NCBI RefSeq assembly: GCF_900182835.1
Contig: NZ_FXUB01000001.1
Coordinates: 557,954-621,953, forward strand
DNA: 64,000 bases
DNA from: Desulfurobacterium pacificum
Lineage (GTDB): Bacteria > Aquificota > Aquificia > Desulfurobacteriales > Desulfurobacteriaceae
Reading direction: 5' to 3'
Shown here: in pieces, positions 18,209-60,915 of the stretch
Position numbering within the stretch: the stretch's first letter is position 1
Layout: each line of letters opens with the position of its first letter
The notes under the pieces: generated by a model
What the model was told of the DNA's origin: nothing
The model's database searches: none
The model's input: only the letters and a program-made list of their open reading frames with translations
Translations under genes and position numbers: made by a program

Positions 18209-18522
18209 AAGTCCTCCAAAAGTAATTCTGCCACCGATTCACCGAAAGATGAAATCAAAACGCTCTTAACAGCACTCCAGAACGTAGAAAACTCACTTTC
18301 ATTTAAATCTGCCAACACCTCTCTCTCTGTAAGAACAATCTTTCCAGAAACGTCAGACGGAACTTTACCAACCGCCAGCCGAAAGATAGTATAAGCTGAC
18401 AGCGTTCCCAACTTCTCTTTTAACTCCTCGTAAGCCGCATTCAATTTTTTATTGTAGTCCACGTTACCTCCCGAGTAACCTGAGGGGCGGAGAGAGGAAG
18501 TATCCCTGTCCAAGTTCAACAT
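18199..18522 (-). CDS. Hypothetical 107-aa protein lying between the EAL and KaiC-like genes.
   Basis: ORF with no recognisable motif. It overlaps both neighbours, so its start is uncertain. Confidence 0.4.
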   Translation of the reverse strand: MLNLDRDTSSLRPSGYSGGNVDYNKKLNAAYEELKEKLGTLSAYTIFRLAVGKVPSDVSGKIVLTEREVLADLNESEFSTFWSAVKSVLISSFGESVAELLLEDLWK

Positions 18523-20170
18523 TCATCTCCTTTAAAAGCTTATAAACTTTTTCATTCTCTATCCACTCGGCAAGCAGAGTAATGTTCAGGTTATCACAGA
18601 CGTACTTAACGGCAGAAACGATAATCTCATCCTCTTTTGAAAACGCAAGATTCCTGATTAAACTGCCATCAAGCTTTATATAGGTAGGATGTAACTTTTT
18701 AACGTAATCAAAACCGGAAAATCCACTTGCAAAATCATCTATCGCAAACTCAAACCCTTTCACCTTTAACTTATTAAACAGGTCAACAACTGAAGCCATA
18801 TCTTTCACGTACTCCCTTTCCGTTACTTCAAAAACAATCTCTTCAGCCGGTAGCTCTTCTGAAACGGAAAGCAGAAATTCTCTGTTCTGAGGATTGGAAA
18901 GAAACTTACCCGAAAGGTTAACAAACAACTTTTTCCCTTTCAGCTCCTCTATCTCCTCTTTCCATTTAGGAATTTCGGAAAGAACTATCTTGTCAAGCTC
19001 CTGCCACAAATTCAATCGGTCTAAAACGTCCGCATAAACGTAAACCGATTTGAGTTCGCCATCCTCCTCAAACCTTGATAGCACTTCATAACCGTAAATC
19101 TCTTCCCTTTTCATATCAAAAATCGGCTGAAAAACAGGAATAACTTCCCTGTTAAGAACCTTCTCTTTTATACAGACAAAGCAGTCAAACTTCCTAAAAA
19201 AGCGCTCCCCGAACTCTTCTCTTTCTCTTATCTTCAAAATTGCAGACCTACCTTCCTCCTTCAGCTTCTCAAGAGACATAAAAATAATTCTTTCAACATC
19301 TTCAGGTGATTCAGCCACGCTGCCCAAATCAAGAATAGCCATAGAAACGCCAACGCTGAAATTCTCTGGCATTACCAAAAAGCTCGTCTTATCCTTCAAA
19401 AGCTCGTAGCACTCATCAACGTCCTTCTCACAGACGAAAAGGAACTGCCCAGAGCCCAAATAACCGCAGATAAACTCTGACCCCGCTTTTTCAAGAACTT
19501 CTTTAAAGACGTTTCCAACAAAGTTAATGACCCTGTTACCAACCAAGTTGCCAAAGCGCATGTTTATAAGGTTAAGGTCGTTGATATCAATTATCACTGC
19601 CGTTAAACTCTTTTTCGTCTCTACAAGGCGTCTAACGAGTTCTATTGCAACGTCCCTGTTTAAAAAGCCCGGGATAACACTTACAGGAGAGCGATTTTCA
19701 AGACCGTAAAGGTAGAGAAACGACAGAAAAGAGAGCAGAAAAGAGAAAGCCGAAACGTCCGGTGGTTCCTGGTCGTTAAAACCTACCGATAGGTAGAAGT
19801 CTAAGTTTTTGGCATCTATAGAAAGCGGAATCAAAAGATAGTTCTCGGGGCTTTTTTCTGATTTGCCTTCTAAGGTAAAAGTCTTTACGCTCTCTTTGCG
19901 GATTTCAACGCCCACCGATGAAAGTTTTTCAATTAAAGCGTCCAAAACTTTTTGAAAGGAGCAATCGGAAGAGGAGATGAATTTTACAGACTTGTCTTCA
20001 AGAACTATGAGAGAGAGGGAAGGGGAGGTGAAGGGGGGGATTTTTCTCAAACCATCAATCATATGAAGAACCACTTCCTCAGGAACAGACAGCTCAGAGA
20101 CAGAAAGAAGTAACTTAGAGAAAAGCTCCCTCAGTTTCCCCAACAGTTTTAAACTTTGACTACCCATCAT
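18464..20170 (-). CDS. Cyclic-di-GMP signalling protein: N-terminal sensory region, degenerate GGDEF and a C-terminal EAL phosphodiesterase domain.
   Basis: EAL-domain motifs (EVLSRFE, FVNLSGKFL, FEVTEREYV, FAIDDFASGFSGF, YIKLDGSLI). The GGDEF-like region lacks a canonical GG(D/E)EF. Confidence 0.75.
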   Translation of the reverse strand: MMGSQSLKLLGKLRELFSKLLLSVSELSVPEEVVLHMIDGLRKIPPFTSPSLSLIVLEDKSVKFISSSDCSFQKVLDALIEKLSSVGVEIRKESVKTFTLEGKSEKSPENYLLIPLSIDAKNLDFYLSVGFNDQEPPDVSAFSFLLSFLSFLYLYGLENRSPVSVIPGFLNRDVAIELVRRLVETKKSLTAVIIDINDLNLINMRFGNLVGNRVINFVGNVFKEVLEKAGSEFICGYLGSGQFLFVCEKDVDECYELLKDKTSFLVMPENFSVGVSMAILDLGSVAESPEDVERIIFMSLEKLKEEGRSAILKIREREEFGERFFRKFDCFVCIKEKVLNREVIPVFQPIFDMKREEIYGYEVLSRFEEDGELKSVYVYADVLDRLNLWQELDKIVLSEIPKWKEEIEELKGKKLFVNLSGKFLSNPQNREFLLSVSEELPAEEIVFEVTEREYVKDMASVVDLFNKLKVKGFEFAIDDFASGFSGFDYVKKLHPTYIKLDGSLIRNLAFSKEDEIIVSAVKYVCDNLNITLLAEWIENEKVYKLLKEMNVELGQGYFLSPPLRLLGR

Positions 20171-37601: not shown

Positions 37602-40110
37602 ACAGTATCTTGACCTGAAAGAGAAGTTCAAAGATGCAATCTTAATGTTCAGAATGGGTGACTTCTACGAAATGTTCTTTGAAGACGCAAAAGTAGCAGC
37701 AAAGGAACTGGAAATTGCCCTGACTTCAAGACCTTTTGGAAAGAATAGTGCCAAAGTCCCCATGTGCGGCGTTCCCTATCACGCTGTGGAAAACTACATA
37801 ACCAAACTGGTGAAAAAGGGCTACAAAGTTGCCATATGCGAGCAGTTAGAAGAACCAAAGCCTGGTAAAAAGGTCGTTGACAGAGACGTAGTCAGAGTTA
37901 TCACGCCCGGCACTTACTTTGAAGATGAAACGGAAGACAGATTCTTAATGGCAATATATCCGTTCAAAGGCAACTACTGCGTGGCGTGGTGCGAATTGGG
38001 AACAGGTGATTACCTTTTTACAACAGTTAATAAAAAGGAACTTCTGTCAATACTATCAAAGTTTAAGCCACGAGAAATCATCATTCCCAACACTTCTTCA
38101 ATTCATTCGCTAATAAAAGAAGCTCTTCCTCATGCCTCTATCGTTGAAAGAGAACCTTGCCTTTTTTCAGAAAAGGAAACAGTAATAGATGCAGAAAACA
38201 AAGGTGAAGTAAAAGCTATTTCTGCTCTCTCAGAGTTCGTTAAAGAAACCCAGAAAGAGTTTATACCCAAACTTAAAACTCCCCGTAAATACACAGGCAA
38301 CAGATACGTTTATATTGACCCTCAAACGCAGAAAAACCTTGAGCTTATAGAACCTGCTTTCGGCGACAACGACAAAGCATCTCTATTCGGCGTTTTAAAC
38401 AGAACAAAAACAGGAATGGGCAGAAGACTCTTAAAGTTCTGGATATTACATCCTTTAAGGGACATAAAAGAAATACAAAAACGCCTGAATGCTGTAGAGG
38501 AATTAACTAAAAACTACGAAACTTTAGAAAAACTTTCTTCAACGCTATCCCGAATATACGACCTGGAAAGATTACTATCCAAGATTACGTCTGGCATAGC
38601 CAACCCAAGAGAAATTGCCGCCTTAAGAAACTCTTTAAGTATACTTCCACAGCTCTTTCAGGAAATGTCCCAACTATCATCAACGCTATTTTCAGAAATA
38701 AAGAACGACTTTGACGACCTCTACGATATCTACTGCGAAATAGAAAGGGTTTTAGTAGAAAATCCCCCCACCTCTCCCAAAGAAGGCGGACTGATTAAAG
38801 AAGGCGTCAACGAAGAGTTAGATGAATTGAGAAAACTGAAAAGTCAGGCAGAATCAATCATAAGAGAGATAGAAGAAAGAGAAAGACAGAGAACAGGCAT
38901 ATCAAGCCTAAAAGTAGGCTACAACAACGTTTTCGGATACTACATAGAAGTTTCCAGACCAAACCTTCACCTGATTCCTGAAGATTACATAAGAAAACAA
39001 ACACTGGTCAATGCAGAAAGGTTTATAACGCCAGAACTAAAAGAGTTTGAAGAGAAAATCCTCTCCGCCCAGGAAAGAATAGAAAAGATAGAGTATGAAC
39101 TCTTCTCCAACCTACGCCAATTCATAACAGACAACGCCCACAGAATAATGAAAACGGCAGAGAAAGTCGCCCTCATAGATGTCCTTCAATCCTTAGCCGC
39201 CGTTGCAGTTGAAAGAGACTACACAAAACCTGAAGTAAAAGAAAGCTTCTCAATCTACATAGAAGAAGGTAAACACCCGGTTCTTGAAAAGTTCTTGGAA
39301 GAAGATTTCATTCCAAATACCACCGCCCTCACCCCCGAAAGTTACATCCTCATCGTTACAGGACCGAACATGGGCGGAAAATCGGTATTCCTGCGTCAGA
39401 CAGCCCTCATAACACTAATGGCACAAATAGGCTCTTTTGTGCCAGCCCAAAAGGCAAAAATAGGCATCGTTGACAGGATATTTTCCCGTATTGGCGCTGC
39501 AGACAACCTAAGCAAGGGGCTTTCAACCTTTATGATGGAAATGGTAGAAACTGCCAACATCCTGAAAAACGCCACAGAAAACAGCCTCATAATACTTGAT
39601 GAAATCGGAAGGGGAACGAGCACCTACGACGGCATGAGCATCGCAAGAGCTGTGGTGGAATACATCTCAGAAAAACTTTCTGCAAAAACTCTCTTTGCAA
39701 CCCACTACCATGAACTTACAGAACTTGAAGGAACGGTGAAAGGCATCAAAAACTTTCACGTTTCCGTAGAAGAAATAAACGGCAGAATAGTATTCACCCA
39801 TAAAGTTTTGCCCGGAGCGTCGGAAAAGTCCTACGGCGTCCACGTTGCAGAGTTAGCAGGACTTCCAAAGGAAGTAATAAAGAGAGCCAAAGAAATCCTC
39901 AGCAGCCTTGAAGAGAAAACCGACTACCTCCCCCTGTTTCAAAATATCCCCACCTACAGCGAAACTACAGAGTTTGAAAACGAAATGGTAGAAAGGCTTT
40001 TAGAAGAGTTAGAATCCATTGAAATTTCCACCACAACACCCCTTGAAGCGCTCATGATACTGTCAAAGTTGAAAGAAATCGCTAAAACGGTGAAAAGAGG
40101 TGGACGTTGA
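37567..40110 (+). CDS. mutS: DNA mismatch repair protein MutS.
   Basis: TPALKQYLDLK N-terminus, Walker A GPNMGGKS and the HTH C-terminus. The annotated ATG overlaps yacG by 35 nt, and an in-frame TTG at about 37585 is an alternative start. Confidence 0.9.
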   Translation: MKNQKKLTPALKQYLDLKEKFKDAILMFRMGDFYEMFFEDAKVAAKELEIALTSRPFGKNSAKVPMCGVPYHAVENYITKLVKKGYKVAICEQLEEPKPGKKVVDRDVVRVITPGTYFEDETEDRFLMAIYPFKGNYCVAWCELGTGDYLFTTVNKKELLSILSKFKPREIIIPNTSSIHSLIKEALPHASIVEREPCLFSEKETVIDAENKGEVKAISALSEFVKETQKEFIPKLKTPRKYTGNRYVYIDPQTQKNLELIEPAFGDNDKASLFGVLNRTKTGMGRRLLKFWILHPLRDIKEIQKRLNAVEELTKNYETLEKLSSTLSRIYDLERLLSKITSGIANPREIAALRNSLSILPQLFQEMSQLSSTLFSEIKNDFDDLYDIYCEIERVLVENPPTSPKEGGLIKEGVNEELDELRKLKSQAESIIREIEERERQRTGISSLKVGYNNVFGYYIEVSRPNLHLIPEDYIRKQTLVNAERFITPELKEFEEKILSAQERIEKIEYELFSNLRQFITDNAHRIMKTAEKVALIDVLQSLAAVAVERDYTKPEVKESFSIYIEEGKHPVLEKFLEEDFIPNTTALTPESYILIVTGPNMGGKSVFLRQTALITLMAQIGSFVPAQKAKIGIVDRIFSRIGAADNLSKGLSTFMMEMVETANILKNATENSLIILDEIGRGTSTYDGMSIARAVVEYISEKLSAKTLFATHYHELTELEGTVKGIKNFHVSVEEINGRIVFTHKVLPGASEKSYGVHVAELAGLPKEVIKRAKEILSSLEEKTDYLPLFQNIPTYSETTEFENEMVERLLEELESIEISTTTPLEALMILSKLKEIAKTVKRGGR

Positions 40111-41054
40111 TTTTGGTAACGGGCGGAGCAGGCTTCATAGGTTCACACCTCGTTGAAGAGATAGTAAAAAAGGAAAAAGTCGTTGTAGTGGATAACCTTT
40201 CAAGCGGAAAATTAGAGAACCTGCCAGAACACGAAAACCTTATTTTCCTGAAAGAAGACATATCGGATAAAAGCACAGTCAAGAATATCTTTGATAGCTA
40301 CCCTGTAAAAACCGTATATCATCTGGCAGCTGTTGCTTCCGTTCAAAGGTCGGTAGAGGAACCGGAAGAAACCCACAGAACAAACTTTGATTCAACTCTG
40401 TTCCTTTTAGAAGAGAGCAGAAAAAACAAAGTAAGCAAGTTTATATTTGCCTCCTCTGCAGCCGTTTACGGCGACCTTCCAGAACTGCCCAAAAGAGAGG
40501 ATATGCCCGTCAAACCGCTAACCCCTTACGGCGTTGACAAATACGCTTCCGAAAGATACGTGGTTAACAGCTTCCACCTTTACAACTTAAACGGCACAGC
40601 TCTGCGTTTTTTCAACGTTTACGGCGAAAGGCAGGACCCTTCATCCCCCTATTCCGGTGTTATTTCAATATTCATAGATAGAACTATAAAGCACCTTTCA
40701 GGTGAAGAAACGAAAATAGTCATATACGGCGATGGCAAACAAACGAGGGACTTTATCTACGTAAAAGACGTTGTTAAAGCTCTTATCCTTGTTGGCAAAT
40801 CACCTGAATCTAACGGAAAGGTTTTCAACGTGGGAACGGGCAGAGAAACCTCTCTCCTGCAGCTACTCAAAGTGATAGAAGAAATTGCCGGTGACGTTCC
40901 ACCGGTAAAGTTTGCCCCTCCCCGCAGAGGTGATGTAAAACGTTCCTGCGCAGATATAAGAAGAATTAAAGAGTTGGGGTTCCAGCCTTCCTATTCTTTG
41001 AAAGAAGGATTAAGAAAACTGTTCCAATACGAGCTTCAGAACCACAAACGATAA
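40107..41054 (+). CDS. NAD-dependent sugar-nucleotide epimerase/dehydratase (SDR). It is PelX-like, i.e. a candidate UDP-GlcNAc/UDP-Glc 4-epimerase.
   Basis: VTGGAGFIGSHL Rossmann motif and the YxxxK catalytic pattern (YGVDKY). Its 3' end converges on and overlaps the pelB-like gene. Confidence 0.75.
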   Translation: MILVTGGAGFIGSHLVEEIVKKEKVVVVDNLSSGKLENLPEHENLIFLKEDISDKSTVKNIFDSYPVKTVYHLAAVASVQRSVEEPEETHRTNFDSTLFLLEESRKNKVSKFIFASSAAVYGDLPELPKREDMPVKPLTPYGVDKYASERYVVNSFHLYNLNGTALRFFNVYGERQDPSSPYSGVISIFIDRTIKHLSGEETKIVIYGDGKQTRDFIYVKDVVKALILVGKSPESNGKVFNVGTGRETSLLQLLKVIEEIAGDVPPVKFAPPRRGDVKRSCADIRRIKELGFQPSYSLKEGLRKLFQYELQNHKR

Positions 41055-44014: not shown

Positions 44015-45085
44015 TTAATTTCCTCCAGAAACCCTCTTCAAAAGCATATCAGCAATTCTCAAAGATAGCTTCCTATCGTTAATAGCTCTTGCCACACCTA
44101 AAAAGTAGTTAAGTACGCTGTCATTGTTAGAATATTTATCTAAATTCTCTTCAATAAGCTGAGAGACACTACCATAATCCCTTTTCCATAAAGCTAAGTT
44201 TATACACGTCTTAAGAACATTAAAGGATGGATTCTTTTTCAAGTAAACCTTACAAAATTCTAAAGCTCTATCGTAATCTTTATAAGAAAGCTCAAAATTC
44301 ACCAAAGTTCTAAAATCTTTGAAAGAGAACTCACCTCTATGAAGCAGGTTATAGGCTAATTGTTCAACTGTTCCCTTCTGTTTCAGATATAAAGCTGTTT
44401 TGAATAACTCTTTATCAAAATCTTTCCCAATCTCTCCTTTCCTCATCAAAATCTTTAACGTATCAGCAATCAGCTTTTTATCTCCAGAAGATATAGCAAG
44501 AACCATCAATTGCTTATAGTAATTTTCATCTCCCGTTAATTTCGCAAGTTTTTCACAACTCTTATAAGCCAAGTCCTTAAAGCCAAAGGCAAGAGCTTCC
44601 TCATAAACAAATCTATACGTTTCAATAGAAGGAAACGTCCTCTCATAAGACTCAAGAAACTTACGTATCTCTTTCCTTATTTTCTCTCTTTCCTTATTAT
44701 CCTTTTGGGCAAAATACTCCGATACAAGAATCTTAAAATCTAACTGATAAAGGAATTTTTTCTGCTTTTTATCCCTAATTTTTTCCAAATACTTTTCTAT
44801 AAGTCTATGAGCTTCTTCATACCTTCCTAACTTAACATCCTTCTCTATCAAAAGAGAAAACAACTTAGAATCAAACTTAATATCCAAAAGTTTTTCTAAA
44901 TATAATCTGGAAAGATCAAGGTTATAGTCTTCTTGAGTAAGCAGAATTTCATTCAATCTACCTTTCGGAAACATTACAAAAGCCAGAATCAAAAATAATC
45001 CAACAAAAGCTAACACTTCCCATTTAGAGAATATTTCAACGTTTACAAACTGCTTCCACTGTAACCTTTTTCTTTCTTGCTTCAA
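44015..45085 (-). CDS. Inner-membrane-anchored TPR protein. It is either a split-off N-terminal part of PelB or an accessory TPR protein.
   Basis: One N-terminal TM helix (VLAFVGLFLILAFVMF) followed by TPR-like helical repeats. Its stop directly abuts the start of the pelB-like gene. Confidence 0.55.
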   Translation of the reverse strand: MKQERKRLQWKQFVNVEIFSKWEVLAFVGLFLILAFVMFPKGRLNEILLTQEDYNLDLSRLYLEKLLDIKFDSKLFSLLIEKDVKLGRYEEAHRLIEKYLEKIRDKKQKKFLYQLDFKILVSEYFAQKDNKEREKIRKEIRKFLESYERTFPSIETYRFVYEEALAFGFKDLAYKSCEKLAKLTGDENYYKQLMVLAISSGDKKLIADTLKILMRKGEIGKDFDKELFKTALYLKQKGTVEQLAYNLLHRGEFSFKDFRTLVNFELSYKDYDRALEFCKVYLKKNPSFNVLKTCINLALWKRDYGSVSQLIEENLDKYSNNDSVLNYFLGVARAINDRKLSLRIADMLLKRVSGGN

Positions 45086-47801
45086 CCTCTACCATTCCTC
45101 CTTTCCTTTTCAAATTAACTCCATTACCCACTCTAAGAGAACAGGTATCAGCTACCCGCAAATCTGCCTTCAAAGGTAAAACTTCTGAATGCAGAACTAA
45201 ACGGTAATATCCTCTTTCTACATCTTTCCTAAAATCCTTTACCATACCGTTTGAACTCACCAGAACAAAATCGTTATCATCTCTATTAACAAAAACGATT
45301 CTCCTACATCTACTATCATCTAAAAATACGTAAATCCTGCCGTTTATCCTTCTATAACCAACAACTCCTTGAGATTTATCAATACTTGGTATCCCGCCCT
45401 TCCCCTCCAATCTAACTGTCTTCAAACTACCCGAAGAACAAAAGTACATATTTCCATCCCTATTACTTTCAGCAATACTTGCTCCCCTGAATTCCAAAAC
45501 CCGCTGGGCATATTCAGAGAGAAACATAGGAACAGTTCCTTGTCTCATAGCCCAATCGTAAACTTTCTTTAAAGCGTTGAAAGACAAAGGAAATTGAGCA
45601 GAGTAAAAATGGTAATAGATACTTATAGGCTTTAATCTTCTCGGCTTATCCGTAAGTTTAAACGTTGAAATAACTCTAACGTACCCATCTTTGATTTTCC
45701 AACCTTTCGTATAAACTTCCTCATTTTGAACAGGAGCATAAACTTGAAAAAATTTTCCCTTATTGATACCCATAGGAGAAACTTTACAAAGGTAAGGAAA
45801 AGTATCATCTATAGTTGTATCCCCTCCGTTAACGTTATAAACACCCAACTTATACGTTCTTTCAACAACCGGTGGCGGTGGGGCACAATCACCAGACCAC
45901 AACAACACTTTCGCCTTTTTACCATTAGGAGCAAGATATTTATCTATAAACTCGAGAGAATAATCAATTTCTTTCTTTACACTTGGAACATAACCGGGGA
46001 TAGGAAGATGATAACCATACTTAAGATTTCTCTTATCGGTAGGTTTCAAACCCATACTCATTCTGTAAACATCTATCCAGTTAAAAGGATGAGAATAAGT
46101 ATGACTCGCAGGCTCAACGTTAGGAAGCGAAAAAATACTTTTAGCAACTTCCATCAATTTCTTTGCCTTTTTAGGATAAAGCCCTCGTGGGTCAACTTCT
46201 CCAACTATTACAGAAACAGTATGCGGAACTTTATAAACCTTAAAAATCTTTTCTCTTAAAACTTCACCTACATATTTTCCATATTCCACAAAACTTTTAT
46301 CTGCAAACCCATCTCCATCTAAGTGAACAGTCATTATTCTCCGCCCACTCTCAGTCGTGACGTCAGGCGCAAAAGGCAATCGTCCAAAAACTTCCGAAAA
46401 CAGCCAAAACGGGTCAAAAACCCACAAACTATCGTTAAACATATCTTTAAGCAAGTAACCTGAATAACCGTAGCCGCCCCACGGAGTTATCGCAACAGGA
46501 ATGAACTTTTGACCTACAGAATTCTCTAAAACAAGCAAAGGAGTATATTTCCCTTTAGGATTTACAAAACTATCCGTAGGAAACGGATAGGCTTTAATCT
46601 CAAAACCATAAGTTCTTCCTTTATAAACAATCTTAGGAACTTCTTCGGGCTTTCTGTTGGAAACCAATTCAAAATTTAAGTGTTTTAACTGCTCAGGCGA
46701 AAAAACGCTTAAATCAACAATAAAAACCTTTATTCCTCTTTTCTTAGCTTTTAAAAGTAACTTTATTACTTTATCTTTATTTTTTTTCCCTCGTATATTC
46801 CATACAACAACGCCTTTTACATCGGAAGTTAAACTTTTTTCAGAAAAATCCCCCACACTCACCACCACCGGTTCATATCCCAACCATTCAAGCGGTAATT
46901 GAATTAACCTATGAACATCACTCTCATCAGGAATCTCTAAAGATGAGTCATAAACCAAAAGAATTTTCCTCTTCAAAATATGGAAAACTCCTTCTCCTAC
47001 CTCTGTCAAATTTTTATCAGCAACCCAAGGTATAAACCCCTCTTTTATTAACCTCTTAGCAACTCTCCTCGCCTCCTGTTCTTTATTAGACGGCAGATAG
47101 TCAATCACCACTACAGGTTTTTCTTCTTTTATCTTTTTAAGCTTATCTAACAACCATTGTCTTTCTCTATTTCCCACATCAACGTAATTAAGCTTAGCAT
47201 CTAATCCTTTATAAAGAGATTCAACAACTACCGCATCAATCAAACTTTTGACCTGAGGATAGACATCAAATCCCCTATTAACCATAATAATCTTCTTGGG
47301 ATAATTCCTCCTCAAAGCCTTGATAAACTCAACTTTTCTTCTTTCATAGCTTTTCCATTCCTTCTTAGGAAGAACCATTTGATAAGAATCAAGCGTATCC
47401 AAAAAAATCCCATCGTAACTCTTAAGCAAAGCACTTGCTTTCTTCAACATAAACTCAAAACATTCTTTATTTCTTAGATCAACAACAAAAGATTTCCACG
47501 CTTTATTCTTACCTAAAATCCAGCTTTTCCTAACGTGCTTAAAAAACTTTCTAAAAGGTTCTACCTCGCCCAAGCTAAAGTAAGCTATAAGCTTTCCCCT
47601 CCTTTTAACGTAAAACCTCTCTTTTATCTTTTCTGGAGTAAAAACATCAGGGTCAACAACTATCCAATCGTATGTATACAAAACTTGGTCTGGAGGCTCA
47701 GAATACATAAAAGCAACAGATGGCTTAACGCTTTGCGCAAAAACTTGAAATCCCCACAAAAAACTAAGTGTTAAGCATAAAAGTCCTATAATGAATCTCA
47801 T
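45036..47801 (-). CDS. pelA: PelA-like periplasmic bifunctional protein: an N-terminal GH114/GH166-type glycoside hydrolase and a C-terminal CE4 polysaccharide deacetylase.
   Basis: Signal peptide and a GH114-like TIM-barrel region (IAYFSLGEVE...GIFLDTLDSY...IMVNRGFD). A CE4-like HTYSHP motif and an upstream DGDG sequence are present. At 921 aa it is similar in length to P. aeruginosa PelA (948 aa). Confidence 0.7.
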   Translation of the reverse strand: MRFIIGLLCLTLSFLWGFQVFAQSVKPSVAFMYSEPPDQVLYTYDWIVVDPDVFTPEKIKERFYVKRRGKLIAYFSLGEVEPFRKFFKHVRKSWILGKNKAWKSFVVDLRNKECFEFMLKKASALLKSYDGIFLDTLDSYQMVLPKKEWKSYERRKVEFIKALRRNYPKKIIMVNRGFDVYPQVKSLIDAVVVESLYKGLDAKLNYVDVGNRERQWLLDKLKKIKEEKPVVVIDYLPSNKEQEARRVAKRLIKEGFIPWVADKNLTEVGEGVFHILKRKILLVYDSSLEIPDESDVHRLIQLPLEWLGYEPVVVSVGDFSEKSLTSDVKGVVVWNIRGKKNKDKVIKLLLKAKKRGIKVFIVDLSVFSPEQLKHLNFELVSNRKPEEVPKIVYKGRTYGFEIKAYPFPTDSFVNPKGKYTPLLVLENSVGQKFIPVAITPWGGYGYSGYLLKDMFNDSLWVFDPFWLFSEVFGRLPFAPDVTTESGRRIMTVHLDGDGFADKSFVEYGKYVGEVLREKIFKVYKVPHTVSVIVGEVDPRGLYPKKAKKLMEVAKSIFSLPNVEPASHTYSHPFNWIDVYRMSMGLKPTDKRNLKYGYHLPIPGYVPSVKKEIDYSLEFIDKYLAPNGKKAKVLLWSGDCAPPPPVVERTYKLGVYNVNGGDTTIDDTFPYLCKVSPMGINKGKFFQVYAPVQNEEVYTKGWKIKDGYVRVISTFKLTDKPRRLKPISIYYHFYSAQFPLSFNALKKVYDWAMRQGTVPMFLSEYAQRVLEFRGASIAESNRDGNMYFCSSGSLKTVRLEGKGGIPSIDKSQGVVGYRRINGRIYVFLDDSRCRRIVFVNRDDNDFVLVSSNGMVKDFRKDVERGYYRLVLHSEVLPLKADLRVADTCSLRVGNGVNLKRKGGMVEVEARKKKVTVEAVCKR

Positions 47802-49137
47802 AAAGAGCCCTCCTCAATAGAAGCGTAGCAAAAACAAAAGAAAAAAGCAGAGAAAACAGAAAACCGTAACCGTAAAAGTAAGGACCTCCCTTAATGCTCA
47901 GATAGGTAAAGAGAGCATTCGTAACGAAAAAAACAACAGTTGATACAACAGCTTCTCTCCGCAAGTCAAAATAAAAAAGCAGAGAAAGAACCACCATAAA
48001 GAGCAATTGCAGAGAAGTCCCTAAACACAAAATATTAAATAGAGGAATGTACAGCAGAGAAAGCTTAAACAACTTAAAAAGAGCATACTCCACCAAAAAA
48101 ACAATAACTAAAGCTATAGCCTGAATTCTAAAAACCTCTTGGATTAAAGACCTTATAGCCATAAGCATTTCATAACCTAACTCCAGGATTCTCTCTAAAG
48201 TTTCCCCTTCCCTCACAGCATCGTAGTATCTTTGATAGTATTCTGCAAATTCCCCTTCCAGTTTTAAAAAGAAAAACCCCATACCTGGCGCAATAGAAAG
48301 GTAAGCTAAAAACATCGGAACATCATAAACGATAGACGCCCTAAAAGGTCCCAGAACGTTTTCTCCCGTAGAACCTGAAAACCAAAAAAGAAACTTATCA
48401 ATCCATATTCCTAAGTTATAAAAAACACCTGCAACAGCCAAAGAGTAATAAACTCTCTTTCGGTTTAAAAAATCAAACTCAATCAATCTATCGGAAGGAA
48501 AGGATTTAAACATATAACCGACAATAAGAGAAAAAGTAATCCCCGCACCCACAAAATAAGCAATTAAAAAGCCTAACACAAAATATTTCTGCAACAAACC
48601 TGCCAGAAGAACCATAACACCAAAACCAAAAAGGAAAGAGGCAAAAACGAACTTATAACTTTTAAGTGACGTCAAAACAGTATTAGCTATCCAAAAACCA
48701 GAAAAGAGAGACATAAGAAACGCAAACAAAAGAACAAAAACTGGAGAAAGCTCCCTCACGTATAACAGCCCTACAAGTAGTCCAAAAATAAGCCCGGCAA
48801 TCATGCTAAGTGTAAGAGCTCCAATAAAATTAGGGAGAACTCTATCTATTTCCTTGCTAAAAATCCTATCCGCTACGTACCTGCTGAACAGCAGTTGCAA
48901 AGGAGAAGAAACTATTAAGCTCAAAGCCGTTACATAAGTAATAACTATCTGACATTTCCTAACAAAATCGTTGTCTCCAGAAACCTTCCCTGCAACTATA
49001 CCTGCAACTAATATCGCAACAATAGACACTATCCAAGGTCCTGCACTTAGAGAGACAGAATATGCAAAAGAAAGCAGGATTGAAGACAGCCTATTACTCT
49101 TTAATAACCTTTTTAGTTCAAACGATATCCCTGCCAT
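47764..49137 (-). CDS. pelG: PelG-like 12-TM polysaccharide transporter (MATE/MOP-like).
   Basis: The MAGISFELKRLL N-terminus resembles P. aeruginosa PelG (MAGIGFELRK...). It has about 12 hydrophobic helices and is 457 aa, against 456 aa for PelG. Confidence 0.75.
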   Translation of the reverse strand: MAGISFELKRLLKSNRLSSILLSFAYSVSLSAGPWIVSIVAILVAGIVAGKVSGDNDFVRKCQIVITYVTALSLIVSSPLQLLFSRYVADRIFSKEIDRVLPNFIGALTLSMIAGLIFGLLVGLLYVRELSPVFVLLFAFLMSLFSGFWIANTVLTSLKSYKFVFASFLFGFGVMVLLAGLLQKYFVLGFLIAYFVGAGITFSLIVGYMFKSFPSDRLIEFDFLNRKRVYYSLAVAGVFYNLGIWIDKFLFWFSGSTGENVLGPFRASIVYDVPMFLAYLSIAPGMGFFFLKLEGEFAEYYQRYYDAVREGETLERILELGYEMLMAIRSLIQEVFRIQAIALVIVFLVEYALFKLFKLSLLYIPLFNILCLGTSLQLLFMVVLSLLFYFDLRREAVVSTVVFFVTNALFTYLSIKGGPYFYGYGFLFSLLFSFVFATLLLRRALYEIHYRTFMLNT

Positions 49138-50614
49138 TTAAAAATTCCTCATACAACTTTCTGTAGCTATCAACAAACATCTCAAAGCTGTAAAACCTCT
49201 TAACTCTCTCAAATGCAACTCTACTACAGCTCTGCCATTCCCTTTCATTCTCCAAAAGCTCAAGGTATCCTTTGGCTATTTCACTCGGATTCGCAACTGG
49301 AGCAATCCTACCTGCTCTCCCTAATCTCACATCAGCCTCATTTAAACCACCATATATCAATTGCCTGCAAGAACCAACATCCGTAGCAACGCACGGAACA
49401 CCCGCTGCAAAAGACTCCAAAACTACTAAAGGCATTCCTTCACTTATAGATGTAAGGGTCGTAATCTTTACTTTTTTAAGAACCTCTGAAACACGACGAA
49501 AACCTAAAAACTTTACGTTATTCTCTAATCGCAAAACTTCTACCAACTTTTTACACTCTTCAAAATACTCCGGGTCTTCATCTGTAGGACCAACAACCCA
49601 CCCCTCAACTTTAGCGTTTTTATTAACAACAATCCTCATCGCCTTAATAAAAGTTTTAATATCTTTTATAGGCACAACCCTACCAATTAAAGCAACTACG
49701 GGCAATCTATCTCTACTTTTCCTTGCTTCCTCATACAGCTCTACTTTTACTCCATTAGGAATAACCATTGTCTTTTCTTCAGGAGCACCTAAAGAAATTT
49801 GAACTCTACGAGCATCTTCAAAGAGAGAAATGATTACAGAAGCAGTTCTGTAAGAGATTTTCCCTAAACCCACGAAGAAATTAATCCACATTCTCCTAAG
49901 ATGGTCAATCTCTCCATACTCTTTCTGATAAAAGAACCTCCTATCCTGTATCCAATCTGAATTCAGAATATCTATCTTCCTTTCTCTCGTATAAATACCA
50001 TGCTCAGTAAGGATAAAAGGTGATTTATAACTGTTTCTAATTAAAGAAGCTAAAAAACCAGCATATCCCGTAGAAGGACTATGAACCAATCTTGGTCTAT
50101 CTACTTCTTCAACTATTGAAGCTACCCTCCATAAAGGGTCATGAATATTCCTTACCGTCCAAAAATAATCAATAAAAGGCAAATCTTCAGCAAAAGTCAT
50201 ATAGCTTTCACATATAAACTCCCAAGAAGTTCTCCCATACAGAAACTCCTCCTCTTTAACCTCTTTTAAGTAAAAATCCTTTCTATGTAGGTTTTCAGGT
50301 ATATCTCCTCCACTCCTTCTGAACCAACAGTGCAAAAACCTCAATTTCTCTAAAAGTTTTTCTCTCTTTTTTAGACTTTGAGGCTCTGGTCTATCCTTTT
50401 TATCAAAAAGAAAAAACTCCTTAACAAACAAAACATTATCCGGAATATCGTACTGAATCTCTCCGTAATCCTCCCTCCTACTTCCCAAAAATACAACGCC
50501 AAAGGTAAACTCTGTTAAAGAAGTAATGAGCTGATGTATCCAAGAGGAAACTCCTCCCCTTATGTAAGGATACGTTCCTTCAGCTACCATTAAAATATCA
50601 GGATTATGTGTCAT
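49118..50614 (-). CDS. pelF: PelF-like GT4 family glycosyltransferase.
   Basis: EGTYPYIRGGVSSWIHQL N-terminal motif typical of PelF-type GT4 enzymes, plus the GT-B C-terminal EX7E region. Confidence 0.75.
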   Translation of the reverse strand: MTHNPDILMVAEGTYPYIRGGVSSWIHQLITSLTEFTFGVVFLGSRREDYGEIQYDIPDNVLFVKEFFLFDKKDRPEPQSLKKREKLLEKLRFLHCWFRRSGGDIPENLHRKDFYLKEVKEEEFLYGRTSWEFICESYMTFAEDLPFIDYFWTVRNIHDPLWRVASIVEEVDRPRLVHSPSTGYAGFLASLIRNSYKSPFILTEHGIYTRERKIDILNSDWIQDRRFFYQKEYGEIDHLRRMWINFFVGLGKISYRTASVIISLFEDARRVQISLGAPEEKTMVIPNGVKVELYEEARKSRDRLPVVALIGRVVPIKDIKTFIKAMRIVVNKNAKVEGWVVGPTDEDPEYFEECKKLVEVLRLENNVKFLGFRRVSEVLKKVKITTLTSISEGMPLVVLESFAAGVPCVATDVGSCRQLIYGGLNEADVRLGRAGRIAPVANPSEIAKGYLELLENEREWQSCSRVAFERVKRFYSFEMFVDSYRKLYEEFLNGRDIV

Positions 50615-51605
50615 TCCTCAATCTACCTTCCCACAAAAGTTTCATAAAGTAAACATTTGGATGTAAAGACAATGGAATTCCTTCCCAAAGTTTCTTAACG
50701 TTTTCATAATTCCCACGATAAAACTCAATCTCTGCAAGGTAAGGAATAACTCTTATTTTCGTTACAACATCATTACATTCCAAAGCTTTAGAGAGATATT
50801 CAAATGCCTTCTCATAATCACCTTTCCTTAAAAAAATCCTCCCCGCCACCAAATACACATCTGGGTCACCATTTAACTCCAAAACCTTTTTAACGTAAAA
50901 CAACGTTTCTTCCACAACAAAATTTTCAAGTTCCTTATCCACAAGCCCAAAATAGAGCAATTCCCAATAAAGAAGAGCTAACTTCTTATAAACTTCCAAC
51001 AGTTCCTTCTCTGCCAAACCTTCTTTTAAGCGGCTCTTTAAAAAACTTATCCTGTCATTTATCTCTTTCTCTAAATGAGAAATAATAGAAAAAGCAGTAA
51101 GTCTCACCTCATCTTTAGGATTTCCCAAAGCCCTTTTAGCTATCTCTATAGAAACAGGCGTTCTCATCTCCTTAAGTAGAAAAACAGCTCGTTCATCAAT
51201 ACGGTGAGCTTCACGTTTAAAAAACTGCAAAACTCCTTCTCCAAATTTCCTCGGTCTAACTCTAACATTATCCATAGTTATCTCTTCAACCTGAATACGC
51301 GAAACTGAAGGAGTTCTATCCCTTTTCTGCTTTCTTAAAACAAGCACATACAAAATCAAATAGGCAACATAACCAACTAACGGAAAAAGGAAAACAGAAA
51401 GAAAAATCGCTGGAAAGCTTCCTCTTGCTCTCCTATAAATAGACGTTACAAAAGGATAGATAAAAACAGAAAAAAGCAAAGATGCAATAAAATGAAAAAA
51501 CAAAAAAGCAAAAACAGCAACGTACGGGTTATCAACCCTTAGAAAACCTAAAGCCATAGATTCAAGTATAACAGAACCCACTAAAGTCTTATAGCTGCTT
51601 CCCAA
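50604..51605 (-). CDS. pelE: PelE-like inner-membrane protein (N-terminal TM helices plus a cytoplasmic TPR-like domain).
   Basis: Four predicted TM segments in the first ~100 aa, then TPR-like helical repeats. 333 aa against 329 aa for PelE. Confidence 0.6.
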   Translation of the reverse strand: MGSSYKTLVGSVILESMALGFLRVDNPYVAVFAFLFFHFIASLLFSVFIYPFVTSIYRRARGSFPAIFLSVFLFPLVGYVAYLILYVLVLRKQKRDRTPSVSRIQVEEITMDNVRVRPRKFGEGVLQFFKREAHRIDERAVFLLKEMRTPVSIEIAKRALGNPKDEVRLTAFSIISHLEKEINDRISFLKSRLKEGLAEKELLEVYKKLALLYWELLYFGLVDKELENFVVEETLFYVKKVLELNGDPDVYLVAGRIFLRKGDYEKAFEYLSKALECNDVVTKIRVIPYLAEIEFYRGNYENVKKLWEGIPLSLHPNVYFMKLLWEGRLRNDT

Positions 51606-51625
51606 ATTTCCCCCTCAAATACCTA

Positions 51626-52891
51626 TTACTCTTCAAATTGCTTAAAAAGATACTCCAACTTTTCCTCTATCTTTCTATCTATTGAAATAATTCTGTAAGG
51701 AAGTTCTACTTTCCCGAAACTGTATGAAAAATCCCTTTCTATCCTACCCACAAACCCCCTCGCAGAAGAGATAGAAGAAAGCGGAAGCATCACAAAAACT
51801 AACTTCACTCCGCCCAAATCCACGACGTTCAACATATCAAGACCTCTAATCCTCTCAGACAAAAACAAAGGAAAATCTTCTTTTAAATGGTCTACTCTAT
51901 AAATAACTAAGGAACTTTCTATTCCTGTTCTTTCTCTCAACGAAACCATAACAGACAACTCTTTTAAAAAGTCATACTCAAAATACCGCTTTAAAATAGA
52001 ACTTACACCACCAACCAAATCAACGCTTTCCAGCTCATTAAGCAACCAAAAGAGAATAACACCAAGAGAAAGAATAGTATCGCTGTTAAAATAGTTAAAT
52101 GGAATCCTTGTCAAAACAAAAACTCCCAAGAGTTTATCTCCTGAAGCAAAGTCATAGATAGGAATAACTGCAAGGTATTTAGACTGAATCTGATTTTCTA
52201 TCTGCGAGATAAAAACTGCCTCTTTCTCTTCAAGTGCCTTCTTCACCAAGGGGTCTTCTTTATCTAAGGAAATCTCTTTCCCAACAGAAAGCACACAATC
52301 AAAACCATTTCTCTGCGGCAAGAAAAGTCCAGCTTCTTGAACGTAAAATCCTGCCACCATAAGTTCTTTCAATTTTTCAAAGATTTCTTTTAACCCACCA
52401 CTCTCCCCCAATTCCTTCAATTTTTCCTTCAATTCTCCAATTATTGACCTAATACTAACAGGCTTAACCATATAATGCTTTTCCAACTGGTCGTGAGAAA
52501 GCTTCAGAAGAATAAAATCGCTCGCCTGTCTTCTTATCTTATCCTTGAAGTACAAATTCTCTTCCTCAGTTACTCTAATTTTCCTCGTCCAGAAAAAGTG
52601 GAACTCTCCAGCTATAAGAACATGCAACAGACTCCAAAGCAAAAACTCTACATTCCAGTTTCTATAAAGAACTCCCATGGCAGCAATTTCAAGGAGAAAA
52701 GCTAAAAGCCCAATCTCAAGTCCGTAATAAAGCGTAACAACCAGTAAAAACAGCAAATAAGGGTTAATAGGAGAAGACGTAAACAACGGGTCAGAAGGAT
52801 TCAAAAAATATCCAAAAATGAAGAAAAAAACGGTAAACAAAAAAACTTCTATAAGAACAAACTTAACGCCAATCTCTCTAAACATTATCAA
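51626..52891 (-). CDS. pelD: PelD-like inner-membrane c-di-GMP receptor (4 TM, then a GAF-like and a degenerate GGDEF-like domain).
   Basis: Four N-terminal TM helices, a cytoplasmic region of PelD-like length and a candidate RxxD I-site (RGLD). Supported by its operon context between pelC and pelE. Confidence 0.6.
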   Translation of the reverse strand: MIMFREIGVKFVLIEVFLFTVFFFIFGYFLNPSDPLFTSSPINPYLLFLLVVTLYYGLEIGLLAFLLEIAAMGVLYRNWNVEFLLWSLLHVLIAGEFHFFWTRKIRVTEEENLYFKDKIRRQASDFILLKLSHDQLEKHYMVKPVSIRSIIGELKEKLKELGESGGLKEIFEKLKELMVAGFYVQEAGLFLPQRNGFDCVLSVGKEISLDKEDPLVKKALEEKEAVFISQIENQIQSKYLAVIPIYDFASGDKLLGVFVLTRIPFNYFNSDTILSLGVILFWLLNELESVDLVGGVSSILKRYFEYDFLKELSVMVSLRERTGIESSLVIYRVDHLKEDFPLFLSERIRGLDMLNVVDLGGVKLVFVMLPLSSISSARGFVGRIERDFSYSFGKVELPYRIISIDRKIEEKLEYLFKQFEE

Positions 52892-53340
52892 AACGCCTTG
52901 TCAAACAATTCCTGTGTCATTAATCCCAAAGATTTATTTCCCCATTCAGTTGCAGACAGAGAACCTGAAGCCAACTTTTTCCCAGTTTTCAAGTCTTTAA
53001 CAACATATGTAACGCTCACAGCCGGCTCTCCATCTATTCCGACCTTATAACGCCATTCATTTACATATCCACTAATCACGCACCTGTAACCTTCTTTTAT
53101 TAAATCTCCTTTTTCAGCCCCATTAACTAAATCAACGTTGTAGCCCTTAGACTTTAAAACTCCATAAAGAATAGCAGCCACCCTACTACCTGCCAAAGGA
53201 GTTTCACTATAGTTAGTAAAAGGAACCACAGCACAATGAAAACCTTTAAAGTCTTGCCTTTTCGTCTGATTTATCAAAGTAGCACAGCCGCTTAAAACGA
53301 AAGAAAACGCAAATAATCCCCATAAAAGTTTTTTAATCAT
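52888..53340 (-). CDS. pelC: PelC-like outer-membrane lipoprotein.
   Basis: Lipobox LSGC after the signal peptide, about 150 aa, and first gene of the pel-like operon (ATGA overlap with pelD). Confidence 0.6.
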   Translation of the reverse strand: MIKKLLWGLFAFSFVLSGCATLINQTKRQDFKGFHCAVVPFTNYSETPLAGSRVAAILYGVLKSKGYNVDLVNGAEKGDLIKEGYRCVISGYVNEWRYKVGIDGEPAVSVTYVVKDLKTGKKLASGSLSATEWGNKSLGLMTQELFDKAF

Positions 53341-53412
53341 TATTACTCCCCCTTAACAAAGTAATAACGAATTTTAACACTTAATTTATCACAATGAATT
53401 GATATTAGTCAA

Positions 53413-54972: not shown

Positions 54973-55483
54973 CCGGCAACTCCATCTTTAGTTTTTTCAA
55001 AAATTCTCTAAAATGTTCAGAAAACGCCTTAAATTCTCTTTCTCTTTGCTTAACTTCTTCCCTGCCCAACTCTTCTACATTTATAACCACAATCTCATCA
55101 AATCCTTTCACCCCTAATCTTTTCTCAACTCTATCCTTAACGTAAATGAGGGAATCCCTCTTCAAAACTTCAGCCTTTTCAAGAACATCTCCTATAAACT
55201 TCTCAGCGTTATCTATATCCCTCTGTCTAACCCTACCGGAAAAGTAAAATGAAATAGAAATCCTTACAGGATTCTCAATAGGAAAGTTCTCTAAACCATA
55301 AGTTAACTTTTGGATATGAAACTGATAAATAGCCTCCCTCTGCGCAGCTAAAACTTCCTTATCGTTCATTATAAAAGGTTTCATATCACCGTTGATTCTT
55401 CGGTGCGAAATTCTCTTATAGTTAGCTTTACTCGGTATTTTCCCGACAAAGTAGAAAGTAAACCTCACCCTTTTCACCTTCAC
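54962..55483 (-). CDS. rusA: RusA-family Holliday junction resolvase with a C-terminal ~50-aa extension.
   Basis: PSKANYKR and RQRDIDNAEKFIGDVL match the RusA motifs PPSNNRYYR and RRRDLDNLQKAAFDAL of E. coli. The K/E-rich tail is extra. Confidence 0.7.
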   Translation of the reverse strand: MKVKRVRFTFYFVGKIPSKANYKRISHRRINGDMKPFIMNDKEVLAAQREAIYQFHIQKLTYGLENFPIENPVRISISFYFSGRVRQRDIDNAEKFIGDVLEKAEVLKRDSLIYVKDRVEKRLGVKGFDEIVVINVEELGREEVKQREREFKAFSEHFREFLKKLKMELPDEG

Positions 55484-55533
55484 CGTTTATTTGGTATCTT
55501 TTTAAAAAACGAAAACTGGCAGGTAATAAATTA

Positions 55534-56598: not shown

Positions 56599-56599
56599 G

Positions 56600-56686: not shown

Positions 56687-56695
56687 AATCGGACG

Positions 56696-60801: not shown

Positions 60802-60803
60802 AA

Positions 60804-60894: not shown

Positions 60895-60915
60895 CAATAT
60901 TATTCAATATTTAAA

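What the first reader, a model, noticed from the sequence alone, without database searches (positions are those of the whole stretch)
51626..52891. PelD-like receptor with a candidate RxxD I-site, in a genome that also encodes a GGDEF(degenerate)-EAL protein
In Pseudomonas, Pel synthesis is activated post-translationally when c-di-GMP binds the RxxD site of PelD's degenerate GGDEF domain. This ORF has 4 TM helices plus a ~300-aa cytoplasmic region containing an RGLD motif, followed by further Arg residues. An EAL-domain protein is encoded at 18464-20170. Together these suggest c-di-GMP-gated polysaccharide production in this thermophile.
Basis: inference. Interest (0 to 1): 0.55.

Follow-up and report, generated by a model that had tools for sequence, protein, structure and literature searches.

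The report
Ordinary PelD c-di-GMP receptor gene

Summary
The ORF is real. It lies on the minus strand at 51626-52891, and the likelier start is the ATG at 52885, giving 419 aa. It is 100% identical to an NCBI protein already named 'PelD GGDEF domain-containing protein [Desulfurobacterium pacificum]'.

It sits in an intact eight-gene cluster: pelC-pelD-pelE-pelF-pelG-pelA-TPR-pelB (41036-53340). This rearranged order with a split pelB is already published for Aquificae (Sulfurihydrogenibium; Persephonella has the same order but only one pelB listed).

These residues are kept in 41-42 of 42 thermophile-clade homologues. The catalytic GGDEF position reads DLGGV, so the domain is degenerate. An AF2 model (pLDDT 88) has P. 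aeruginosa PelD structures as its top eight PDB matches.

The gene at 18464-20170 is a GGDEF(GSGQF)-EAL protein with all EAL catalytic motifs. It lies 31 kb away and is only circumstantial support. No diguanylate cyclase and no c-di-GMP riboswitch occur in the window. c-di-GMP binding itself remains untested.

Verdict: interpretation supported, new member of a known kind, low interest.

The parts
51626..52891 (-). pelD ORF. The listed start is TTG at 52891; the likelier start is ATG at 52885, giving 419 aa.
   Evidence: ORF list and translation. 100% identity over 419 aa to the NCBI protein 'PelD GGDEF domain-containing protein [Desulfurobacterium pacificum]'. Pfam PelD_GGDEF at 32 bits against a cut-off of 27.
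52586..52885 (-). N-terminal membrane region, residues 1-100, with four predicted helices.
   Evidence: Hydropathy scan. AF2 helices 2-28, 42-54, 56-73 and 79-136.
52478..52585 (-). Cytoplasmic stalk helix continuing from TM4, residues 101-136. It carries the near-invariant motif LLKLSHDQLE.
   Evidence: AF2 shows one continuous helix 79-136. K128, S130, H131 and E135 are invariant and D132, Q133 and L134 are kept in 90% or more. The motif served as the scan pattern and recovered pelD in 80 genomes. P. aeruginosa S145A/H146A had no phenotype (PMC2170427).
52016..52459 (-). GAF domain, roughly residues 143-290. It includes R146 (nt 52448-52450), the equivalent of P. aeruginosa R161.
   Evidence: phmmer alignment to PelD chains starting at residue 146 in TTG numbering. 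After the PelD structures, Foldseek hits are GAF domains. R146 is invariant in 42 of 42 sequences.
51629..52000 (-). Degenerate GGDEF domain, roughly residues 296-419.
   Evidence: Pfam PF16963 covers residues 306-394 in TTG numbering. hhalign alignment. Foldseek top hits are PelD chains 4dmz, 4etz and 4dn0.
51836..51847 (-). I-site RxxD: R347-G-L-D350.
   Evidence: Translates to RGLD. Aligned on P. aeruginosa R367-G-L-D370 by three methods. R is kept in 41/42 and D in 42/42 homologues.
51806..51820 (-). Position of the catalytic GGDEF motif, five residues after the I-site. It reads DLGGV, which is degenerate.
   Evidence: Read directly from the sequence. It is aligned to the non-GGDEF stretch RNDEG of P. 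aeruginosa PelD.
51743..51745 (-). R381, the equivalent of P. aeruginosa R402 and the third residue essential for c-di-GMP binding.
   Evidence: Alignments. Kept in 41/42 homologues. The role of R402 comes from PMC2170427.
52888..53340 (-). pelC, an outer-membrane lipoprotein of 150 aa with the lipobox LSGC.
   Evidence: phmmer to P. aeruginosa PelC 9h80, E 1.4e-16, and to 5t11 and 5t0z.
50604..51605 (-). pelE-like inner-membrane TPR protein, 333 aa.
   Evidence: Weak TPR hits. Conserved position between pelD and pelF in nearly all of the related loci listed that extend that far.
49118..50614 (-). pelF, a GT4 glycosyltransferase.
   Evidence: NCBIfam NF038011 PelF equivalog, E 2.8e-181, 604 bits.
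47764..49137 (-). pelG, an inner-membrane exporter-like protein.
   Evidence: Pfam PF16933 PelG, E 3.9e-128.
45036..47801 (-). pelA, the hydrolase/deacetylase.
   Evidence: phmmer to P. aeruginosa PelA 9cgy, E 4.6e-130, over residues 27-845. GH114 domain.
44015..45085 (-). TPR protein of 356 aa, the N-terminal fragment of a split pelB.
   Evidence: Weak TPR hits. The same ORF sits between pelA and pelB in L001, L006, L007 and L017. Two pelB genes are listed for Sulfurihydrogenibium in PMC7112194.
41036..44014 (-). pelB, TPR region plus C-terminal outer-membrane beta-barrel, 992 aa.
   Evidence: Pfam TPR_15 E 1.4e-32 and B-barrel_PelB_C PF24604 E 2e-27.
40107..41054 (+). PelX-like SDR sugar-nucleotide 4-epimerase, convergent with pelB.
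   Evidence: Pfam Epimerase E 8e-65. phmmer to 6wjb/6wj9 at E about 1e-68 and to 4zrm at E 8e-72; I recall, without having checked, that 6wj9/6wja/6wjb are P. protegens PelX. The homologue lies directly upstream of pelC in L003, L004, L006 and L012.
18464..20170 (-). GGDEF(degenerate, GSGQF)-EAL protein, a predicted c-di-GMP phosphodiesterase. It is not linked to the pel cluster.
   Evidence: Pfam EAL E 1.5e-49 and GGDEF 24.3 bits. Best PDB match is PA0861 5xgb. The motifs EVLSR, VNLS, EVTE, DDF, IKLD, AEWIE and GQGY are all present.

Best explanation
The ORF is the PelD subunit of a Pel exopolysaccharide synthase complex in Desulfurobacterium pacificum (Aquificota). It has a four-helix membrane anchor and a long stalk helix that places a GAF domain and a catalytically dead GGDEF domain in the cytoplasm.

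By analogy with P. aeruginosa and B. cereus PelD, c-di-GMP (dimeric in the P. aeruginosa structure) binds the retained inhibitory site of the GGDEF domain through R347, D350 and R381, with R146 of the GAF domain touching the ligand. The ligand-bound protein then switches on polymerisation and export by the PelD-E-F-G inner-membrane complex. The polymer is trimmed and deacetylated by PelA and leaves through PelB/PelC.

What is shown here:
- orthology to PelD
- domain architecture
- a degenerate active site
- column-exact conservation of all four ligand-contacting residues
- a complete pel operon

What is inferred:
- actual c-di-GMP binding
- activation of Pel synthesis
- the GalNAc-rich nature of the product, suggested only by the neighbouring PelX-like epimerase
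- the presence of diguanylate cyclases elsewhere in the genome
For: - 100% identity to an NCBI protein already named PelD GGDEF domain-containing protein.
- Pfam PelD_GGDEF is above its gathering score.
- phmmer to P. aeruginosa PelD chains gives E 4e-8 over residues 146-395, with RGLD on RGLD, R on R402 and R on R161.
- hhalign between the thermophile profile and a profile of mostly proteobacterial PelDs gives probability 100%, E 2.1e-67, with the same pairing.
- Conservation is R146 42/42, R347 41/42, D350 42/42 and R381 41/42. The same four residues are invariant in the second alignment of mostly proteobacterial PelDs.
- The AF2 model has pLDDT 88 and pTM 0.81. Its top eight PDB matches are all P. 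aeruginosa PelD, at E 4e-14 to 1e-12.
- The operon partners are identified: PelC, PelF and PelG, PelA and the PelB barrel.
- The order pelC-D-E-F-G-A-(TPR)-B recurs in the related thermophile loci long enough to show it.
- Experimental basis in relatives: R367A, D370A and R402A abolish binding and pellicle formation in P. aeruginosa (PMC2170427). The equivalent mutants do the same in B. cereus (PMC7112168).
Against: - No binding or genetic data exist for any PelD from Aquificota.
- Identity to P. aeruginosa PelD is only about 22%.
- The global superposition of the AF2 model on the crystal structures is poor (rmsd about 11 A, TM 0.3-0.47). The two domains therefore sit differently in the model.
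- No GG[DE]EF cyclase is found in the 64 kb window or in the flanks of the 24 related loci scanned.
- No c-di-GMP riboswitch is present.
- An RxxD motif alone appears by chance in 59% of shuffles.
Confidence: 0.85

Rival explanations
1. PelD here is only a structural scaffold of the PelDEFG complex. Pel synthesis would not be gated by c-di-GMP, as proposed for streptococcal PelD.
For: Streptococcal PelD proteins have lost the GGDEF domain altogether (PMC7112168), so gating is not obligatory in the family. c-di-GMP binding does not affect assembly of the P. aeruginosa PelDEFG complex (PMC8461298). No cyclase is seen in the window.
Against: The GGDEF-like domain is present. All three residues essential for binding are kept in 41-42 of 42 homologues that share only 20-79% identity with the window protein. 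That pattern is hard to explain without selection for ligand binding. An apparently active EAL phosphodiesterase in the same window implies that c-di-GMP exists in this cell.
Confidence: 0.08
2. The I-site or the GAF pocket binds a different ligand, such as another cyclic dinucleotide, a nucleotide or a metabolite, and this ligand is the physiological signal in the thermophile clade.
For: The GAF domain has strongly conserved positions of unknown role (D211, Y237, F263, N267). The nearest non-PelD structural neighbours are ligand-binding GAF domains, for example the cAMP-bound Lcd1.
Against: P. aeruginosa PelD did not bind GTP, cGMP or cAMP (PMC2170427). The conserved residues are exactly those that contact c-di-GMP in 4DN0.
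Confidence: 0.05
3. The protein is an active diguanylate cyclase that makes c-di-GMP locally for Pel synthesis.
For: It has a GGDEF-type fold with an RxxD at the canonical spacing.
Against: The active-site motif reads DLGGV instead of GG[DE]EF. The generic GGDEF Pfam model does not match; only the PelD-specific model does. P. aeruginosa PelD does not bind GTP.
Confidence: 0.01

Closest known systems
Pseudomonas aeruginosa PelD (PA3061; PDB 4DMZ, 4DN0, 4ETX-4EUV)
   Same: Four-helix membrane anchor, stalk helix with the SHDQ motif, GAF domain and degenerate GGDEF domain. The I-site tetrapeptide RGLD is identical, and the equivalents of R402 and R161 are present. The gene lies between pelC and pelE.
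   Different: About 22% identity. It is 419 aa against 455 aa. The operon order is pelCDEFG-A-B rather than pelABCDEFG, and pelB is split. The host is a thermophilic chemolithoautotroph. The inter-domain pose in the AF2 model differs from the crystal structures.
PelD cluster 'G2' of Aquificae and Nautilia in Bundalovic-Torma et al. 2020 (Sulfurihydrogenibium sp. YO3AOP1, S. azorense, Persephonella marina)
   Same: The gene order is the same, pelC-D-E-F-G-A-B. [quoted passage not shown] Sulfurihydrogenibium PelDs are 31-35% identical hits.
   Different: Different family (Desulfurobacteriaceae against Hydrogenothermaceae). D. pacificum was not among the genomes surveyed, and the one Desulfurobacterium genome that was surveyed (D. 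thermolithotrophum) does not appear in the paper's operon tables. The epimerase gene is convergent after pelB here instead of upstream of pelC.
Bacillus cereus ATCC 10987 PelD
   Same: Degenerate GGDEF receptor with an intact RxxD plus a downstream Arg (R363, D366, R395). c-di-GMP binding was shown to be required for biofilm formation.
   Different: Gram-positive operon pelDEA(DA)FG without pelB or pelC. Not compared residue by residue here.
Allosteric I-site of active diguanylate cyclases (for example Caulobacter PleD)
   Same: An RxxD five residues upstream of the GGDEF position binds c-di-GMP.
   Different: In cyclases, binding inhibits catalysis. Here the catalytic site is dead and binding is expected to activate a partner complex.

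Membership tests
PelD (c-di-GMP receptor of the Pel synthase complex) | Significant sequence similarity to characterised PelD over the GAF and GGDEF regions | tested here: met
   phmmer to P. aeruginosa PelD chains, E 4e-8, residues 146-395. Pfam PF16963 at 32 bits against a cut-off of 27. hhalign probability 100%, E 2.1e-67.
PelD (c-di-GMP receptor of the Pel synthase complex) | N-terminal membrane anchor with four predicted TM helices, followed by a linker helix | tested here: met
   Hydropathy scan. AF2 helices 2-28, 42-54, 56-73 and 79-136. Helices 2 and 3 are short, so the count of four is likely but not certain.
PelD (c-di-GMP receptor of the Pel synthase complex) | GAF fold followed by a GGDEF fold | tested here: met
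   AF2 model with pLDDT 88. The Foldseek top eight hits are PelD 156/158-455 structures, followed by GAF domains. The global rmsd is high at about 11 A, so the fold match holds per domain, not for the inter-domain pose.
PelD (c-di-GMP receptor of the Pel synthase complex) | Catalytic GG[DE]EF motif absent (degenerate A-site) | tested here: met
   DLGGV at residues 356-360, aligned to P. aeruginosa RNDEG. The generic GGDEF Pfam model gives no hit.
PelD (c-di-GMP receptor of the Pel synthase complex) | I-site RxxD equivalent to R367/D370 | tested here: met
   R347-G-L-D350 falls on R367-G-L-D370 in three alignments. Conserved in 41/42 and 42/42 homologues.
PelD (c-di-GMP receptor of the Pel synthase complex) | Second-site arginine equivalent to R402, and GAF arginine equivalent to R161 | tested here: met
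   R381 falls on R402 and R146 on R161. Conserved in 41/42 and 42/42 homologues.
PelD (c-di-GMP receptor of the Pel synthase complex) | Encoded in a pel operon next to pelC/pelE/pelF/pelG | tested here: met
   pelC, pelF NF038011 and pelG PF16933, pelA and the pelB barrel. Synteny holds in the related loci.
PelD (c-di-GMP receptor of the Pel synthase complex) | Binds c-di-GMP with micromolar or better affinity, and binding is required for polysaccharide production | not testable with these tools
   Needs ITC or DRaCALA plus genetics. Only the P. aeruginosa and B. cereus proteins have been tested.
EAL-type c-di-GMP phosphodiesterase (gene at 18464-20170) | EAL domain with the catalytic signature E-x-L-x-R, N, E-x-x-E, DD, K, E and Q | tested here: met
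   PF00563 E 1.5e-49. The motifs EVLSR, VNLS, EVTE, DDF, IKLD, AEWIE and GQGY are all present. Enzyme activity was not tested.
Active diguanylate cyclase (GGDEF) anywhere in the window | Intact GG[DE]EF active site | tested here: not met
   No ORF of 100 aa or more in the window carries G[GS][DE]EF. The EAL protein has GSGQF. The rest of the genome was not available.

The most novel reading that the evidence does not exclude
The thermophile clade of PelD (Aquificota, Deferribacterales, Thermodesulfobacterium, Caldatribacterium) might work somewhat differently from the Pseudomonas protein. Possible differences are a different GAF/GGDEF arrangement, as in the AF2 model, or an extra input through the conserved GAF pocket or the invariant SHDQLE stalk motif. 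If so, Pel gating in deep-branching vent bacteria would be a distinct variant, and this protein would be an attractive thermostable subject for a first full-length PelDEFG structure.
Probability: 0.1. Interest if true: 0.4.

Novelty: new member of a known kind. Interest (0 to 1): 0.15.

Why it matters
It matters only modestly. It adds Desulfurobacteriaceae to the lineages where Pel synthesis is predicted to be switched on by c-di-GMP. That supports the view that this receptor-gated exopolysaccharide machine is widespread among hydrothermal-vent and hot-spring biofilm formers. A thermostable PelD or PelDEFG could be useful for structural work, because no full-length PelD or PelDEFG complex structure turned up in the literature search. 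The identification itself is already made by automated annotation, and the operon type is already published.

Tried and rejected
- Looked for a diguanylate cyclase to complete the circuit. There is no G[GS][DE]EF ORF in the window and no G[GAS][DE]EF ORF in the flanks of 24 related loci.
- Looked for c-di-GMP riboswitches with Rfam at gathering thresholds. Only tRNAs and SRP RNA were found.
- Promoter and terminator scans over the operon found no more sites than shuffles give. One plausible -35/-10 lies in the 72-bp gap upstream of pelC (53412-53383), but this is not evidence.
- The look-up of encoding contigs for the exact protein returned nothing, so the public contig could not be read beyond the window.
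- A literature search for 'Desulfurobacterium' plus 'diguanylate cyclase' found no paper.
- NCBIfam has no PelD, PelC or PelG model that matches. Those assignments rest on Pfam and PDB matches.
- phmmer of the 992-aa PelB against the PDB found nothing. Its assignment rests on Pfam PF24604.
- Rejected the idea that the bare RxxD motif is informative, because 59% of shuffles have one.
- Rejected the active-cyclase reading, because the A-site is DLGGV.

Full report
**What is at the coordinates**

The minus strand carries an uninterrupted ORF at 51626-52891. Its listed TTG start overlaps the stop codon of the upstream gene. An ATG two codons further on (52885) gives a 419-aa product. That product is 100% identical over its full length to an NCBI/UniRef protein already named 'PelD GGDEF domain-containing protein [Desulfurobacterium pacificum]'. 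The window is therefore from this hydrothermal-vent member of the Aquificota (family Desulfurobacteriaceae).

**Anatomy of the protein**

- Residues 1-100 are hydrophobic.
- An AlphaFold2 model built on 42 homologues (pLDDT 88, pTM 0.81) has four helices there: 2-28, 42-54, 56-73 and 79-136.
- The last helix continues about 36 residues into the cytoplasm as a stalk. It carries a near-invariant LLKLSHDQLE motif.
- Two alpha/beta domains follow.
- Pfam matches only the PelD-specific GGDEF model (PF16963, 32 bits, cut-off 27).
- Foldseek of the model against the PDB returns the eight P. aeruginosa PelD cytoplasmic structures as the top eight hits (E 4e-14 to 1e-12). GAF domains come next.
- The global superposition is poor (rmsd about 11 A, TM 0.3-0.47). 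The model's two domains are posed differently from the crystals, so I treat the fold match as per-domain.

**The I-site test**

The protein has exactly one RxxD, RGLD at 347-350 (nt 51836-51847). On its own this means little: composition predicts 0.85 RxxD per protein, and 59% of shuffles contain one. The alignments are what count.

- phmmer against PDB chains of P. aeruginosa PelD (E 4e-8, residues 146-395) puts RGLD column for column on 'RGLD'. With chain 4EUV starting at residue 158, that is R367-G-L-D370. The same alignment puts R381 on R402 and R146 on R161.
- MAFFT --add reproduces the I-site columns (RGLD and R381); the N-terminal end of the added P. aeruginosa fragment, which holds R161, was not placed reliably.
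- A profile-profile comparison gives probability 100%, E 2.1e-67 and 395 aligned columns, with the same pairing. It set the 42-sequence thermophile alignment against 17 PelDs translated from mostly proteobacterial loci, anchored on the P. aeruginosa fragment.
- In the thermophile alignment, R146 is kept in 42/42, R347 in 41/42, D350 in 42/42 and R381 in 41/42 sequences. Identity to the window protein there falls to 20%, and the single deviant is the same divergent sequence.
- The same four positions are invariant in the second alignment of mostly proteobacterial PelDs.
- Five residues after D350, where a cyclase would have GG[DE]EF, the sequence reads DLGGV. P. aeruginosa has RNDEG at that position. 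The domain is therefore catalytically degenerate.

R367, D370 and R402 are the residues whose alanine substitution abolishes c-di-GMP binding and pellicle formation in P. aeruginosa (PMC2170427). R161 contacts the ligand but is dispensable (PMC8461298). The equivalent trio is required in B. cereus PelD (PMC7112168).

**Genomic context**

The gene is the second of eight tightly packed or overlapping minus-strand genes spanning 41036-53340:

| Gene | Coordinates | Evidence |
|---|---|---|
| pelC (lipoprotein) | 52888-53340 | E 1.4e-16 to P. aeruginosa PelC 9H80 |
| pelD | 51626-52891 | see above |
| pelE-like TPR membrane protein | 50604-51605 | position and weak TPR hits |
| pelF | 49118-50614 | NF038011 equivalog, E 2.8e-181 |
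| pelG | 47764-49137 | PF16933, E 3.9e-128 |
| pelA | 45036-47801 | E 4.6e-130 to P. aeruginosa PelA 9CGY over residues 27-845 |
| TPR ORF, 356 aa | 44015-45085 | weak TPR hits |
| pelB, 992 aa | 41036-44014 | TPR_15 plus the PelB C-terminal beta-barrel PF24604 |

A convergent SDR epimerase at 40107-41054 matches the chains 6WJ9/6WJB at E about 1e-68. I recall, without having checked, that these are P. protegens PelX, a UDP-GlcNAc 4-epimerase.

A genome-collection scan seeded on the SHDQL motif found pelD in 80 loci. tblastn shows the order (epimerase)-pelC-D-E-F-G-A-(TPR)-B in the Aquificota, Deferribacterales and related thermophile contigs long enough to show it. The canonical pelA-B-C-D-E-F-G order appears in Vibrionaceae and other Gammaproteobacteria.

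**What is already published**

Bundalovic-Torma et al. 2020 list exactly this arrangement, including two adjacent pelB ORFs, for Sulfurihydrogenibium sp. YO3AOP1 and S. azorense. Persephonella marina and Nautilia profundicola have the same order with one pelB listed. All fall in PelD cluster 'G2'. Their Fig. [quoted passage not shown] The operon type is therefore known; D. pacificum is simply a further member.

**The EAL gene**

The gene at 18464-20170 (minus strand, 568 aa) has a strong EAL domain (E 1.5e-49) and a weak, partial GGDEF domain with GSGQF in place of GGDEF. Its best solved relative is PA0861/RbdA. All EAL catalytic signatures are present: EVLSR, VNLS, EVTE, DDF, IKLD, AEWIE and GQGY. 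It is probably an active phosphodiesterase.

It lies 31 kb from pelD with unrelated genes between them, so it shows only that c-di-GMP turnover genes exist in this genome. No intact GGDEF cyclase is encoded in the window and no c-di-GMP riboswitch is present. PilZ domains are reported in Aquificae (bioRxiv 10.1101/814665), so c-di-GMP signalling in the phylum is not in doubt. The cyclases of this particular genome were not examined.

**Mechanism and confidence**

The most likely reading (0.85) is a conventional PelD. c-di-GMP binds the retained I-site of the dead GGDEF domain, and the ligand-bound receptor activates PelF/PelG-dependent synthesis within a PelDEFG inner-membrane complex. PelA modifies the polymer and PelB/PelC export it.

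Orthology, architecture, site conservation and operon membership are shown here. Binding, activation and product chemistry are inferred.

The rivals are:
- a c-di-GMP-independent scaffold (0.08), which is hard to reconcile with near-perfect conservation of the three binding residues
- a different ligand (0.05)
- an active cyclase (0.01), excluded by the A-site sequence

**Verdict**

The feature is an ordinary, already auto-annotated orthologue in a published operon class: a new member of a known kind, of low interest.

Noticed in passing
window 42000-62000: G+C is 0.35-0.39 across this stretch, which holds the pel cluster, against 0.40-0.45 in the first 40 kb. This could reflect the AT-rich codon use of membrane and TPR proteins, or horizontal acquisition.
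   Followed up: no
window 41036-44014 (-), residues 25-86 of the PelB-like protein: A weak SPOR-like (peptidoglycan-binding) match follows the signal peptide of the split PelB (PF05036, E 0.0048, below the cut-off). If real, it would be an unusual anchor for the Pel export protein.
   Followed up: no
window 16829-18522 (-): A KaiC-like double P-loop ATPase (459 aa, PF06745 E 1e-61) lies directly downstream of the GGDEF*-EAL gene. A 107-aa ORF with no family match overlaps both genes, so this may be one operon.
   Followed up: no
window 52478-52585 (-), PelD residues 126-135: The stalk motif LLK[LIV]SHDQLE is conserved from Aquificota to Vibrionaceae, and it was specific enough to retrieve pelD from 80 genomes. 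In P. aeruginosa the S145A/H146A double mutant still bound c-di-GMP and made pellicle, so the motif's role is unexplained.
   Followed up: partly
L013:279-5246: A 5.6-kb contig binned as an 'uncultured Archaeoglobaceae archaeon' carries pelD-E-F-G. This is most likely a mis-binned bacterial contig rather than an archaeal pel operon.
   Followed up: no
L001:2918-4612 (-): In a Desulfurobacteriaceae MAG whose PelD is 69% identical, a 564-aa GGDEF-EAL gene lies about 5 kb upstream of pelC. Genes for ProRS, DnaB and TrpE separate them. Over the roughly 225-residue EAL segment that tblastn aligned, it is 30% identical to the window's EAL protein.
   Followed up: partly
window 40107-41054 (+); L003, L004, L006, L012: The PelX-like epimerase gene sits immediately upstream of pelC in several thermophile loci. 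In this window it is convergent with the end of pelB.
   Followed up: partly
window 29482-29755 (-), 60799-61010 (-): There is a cluster of three tRNA genes, and separately a small SRP RNA next to a tRNA. These are ordinary housekeeping features.
   Followed up: no
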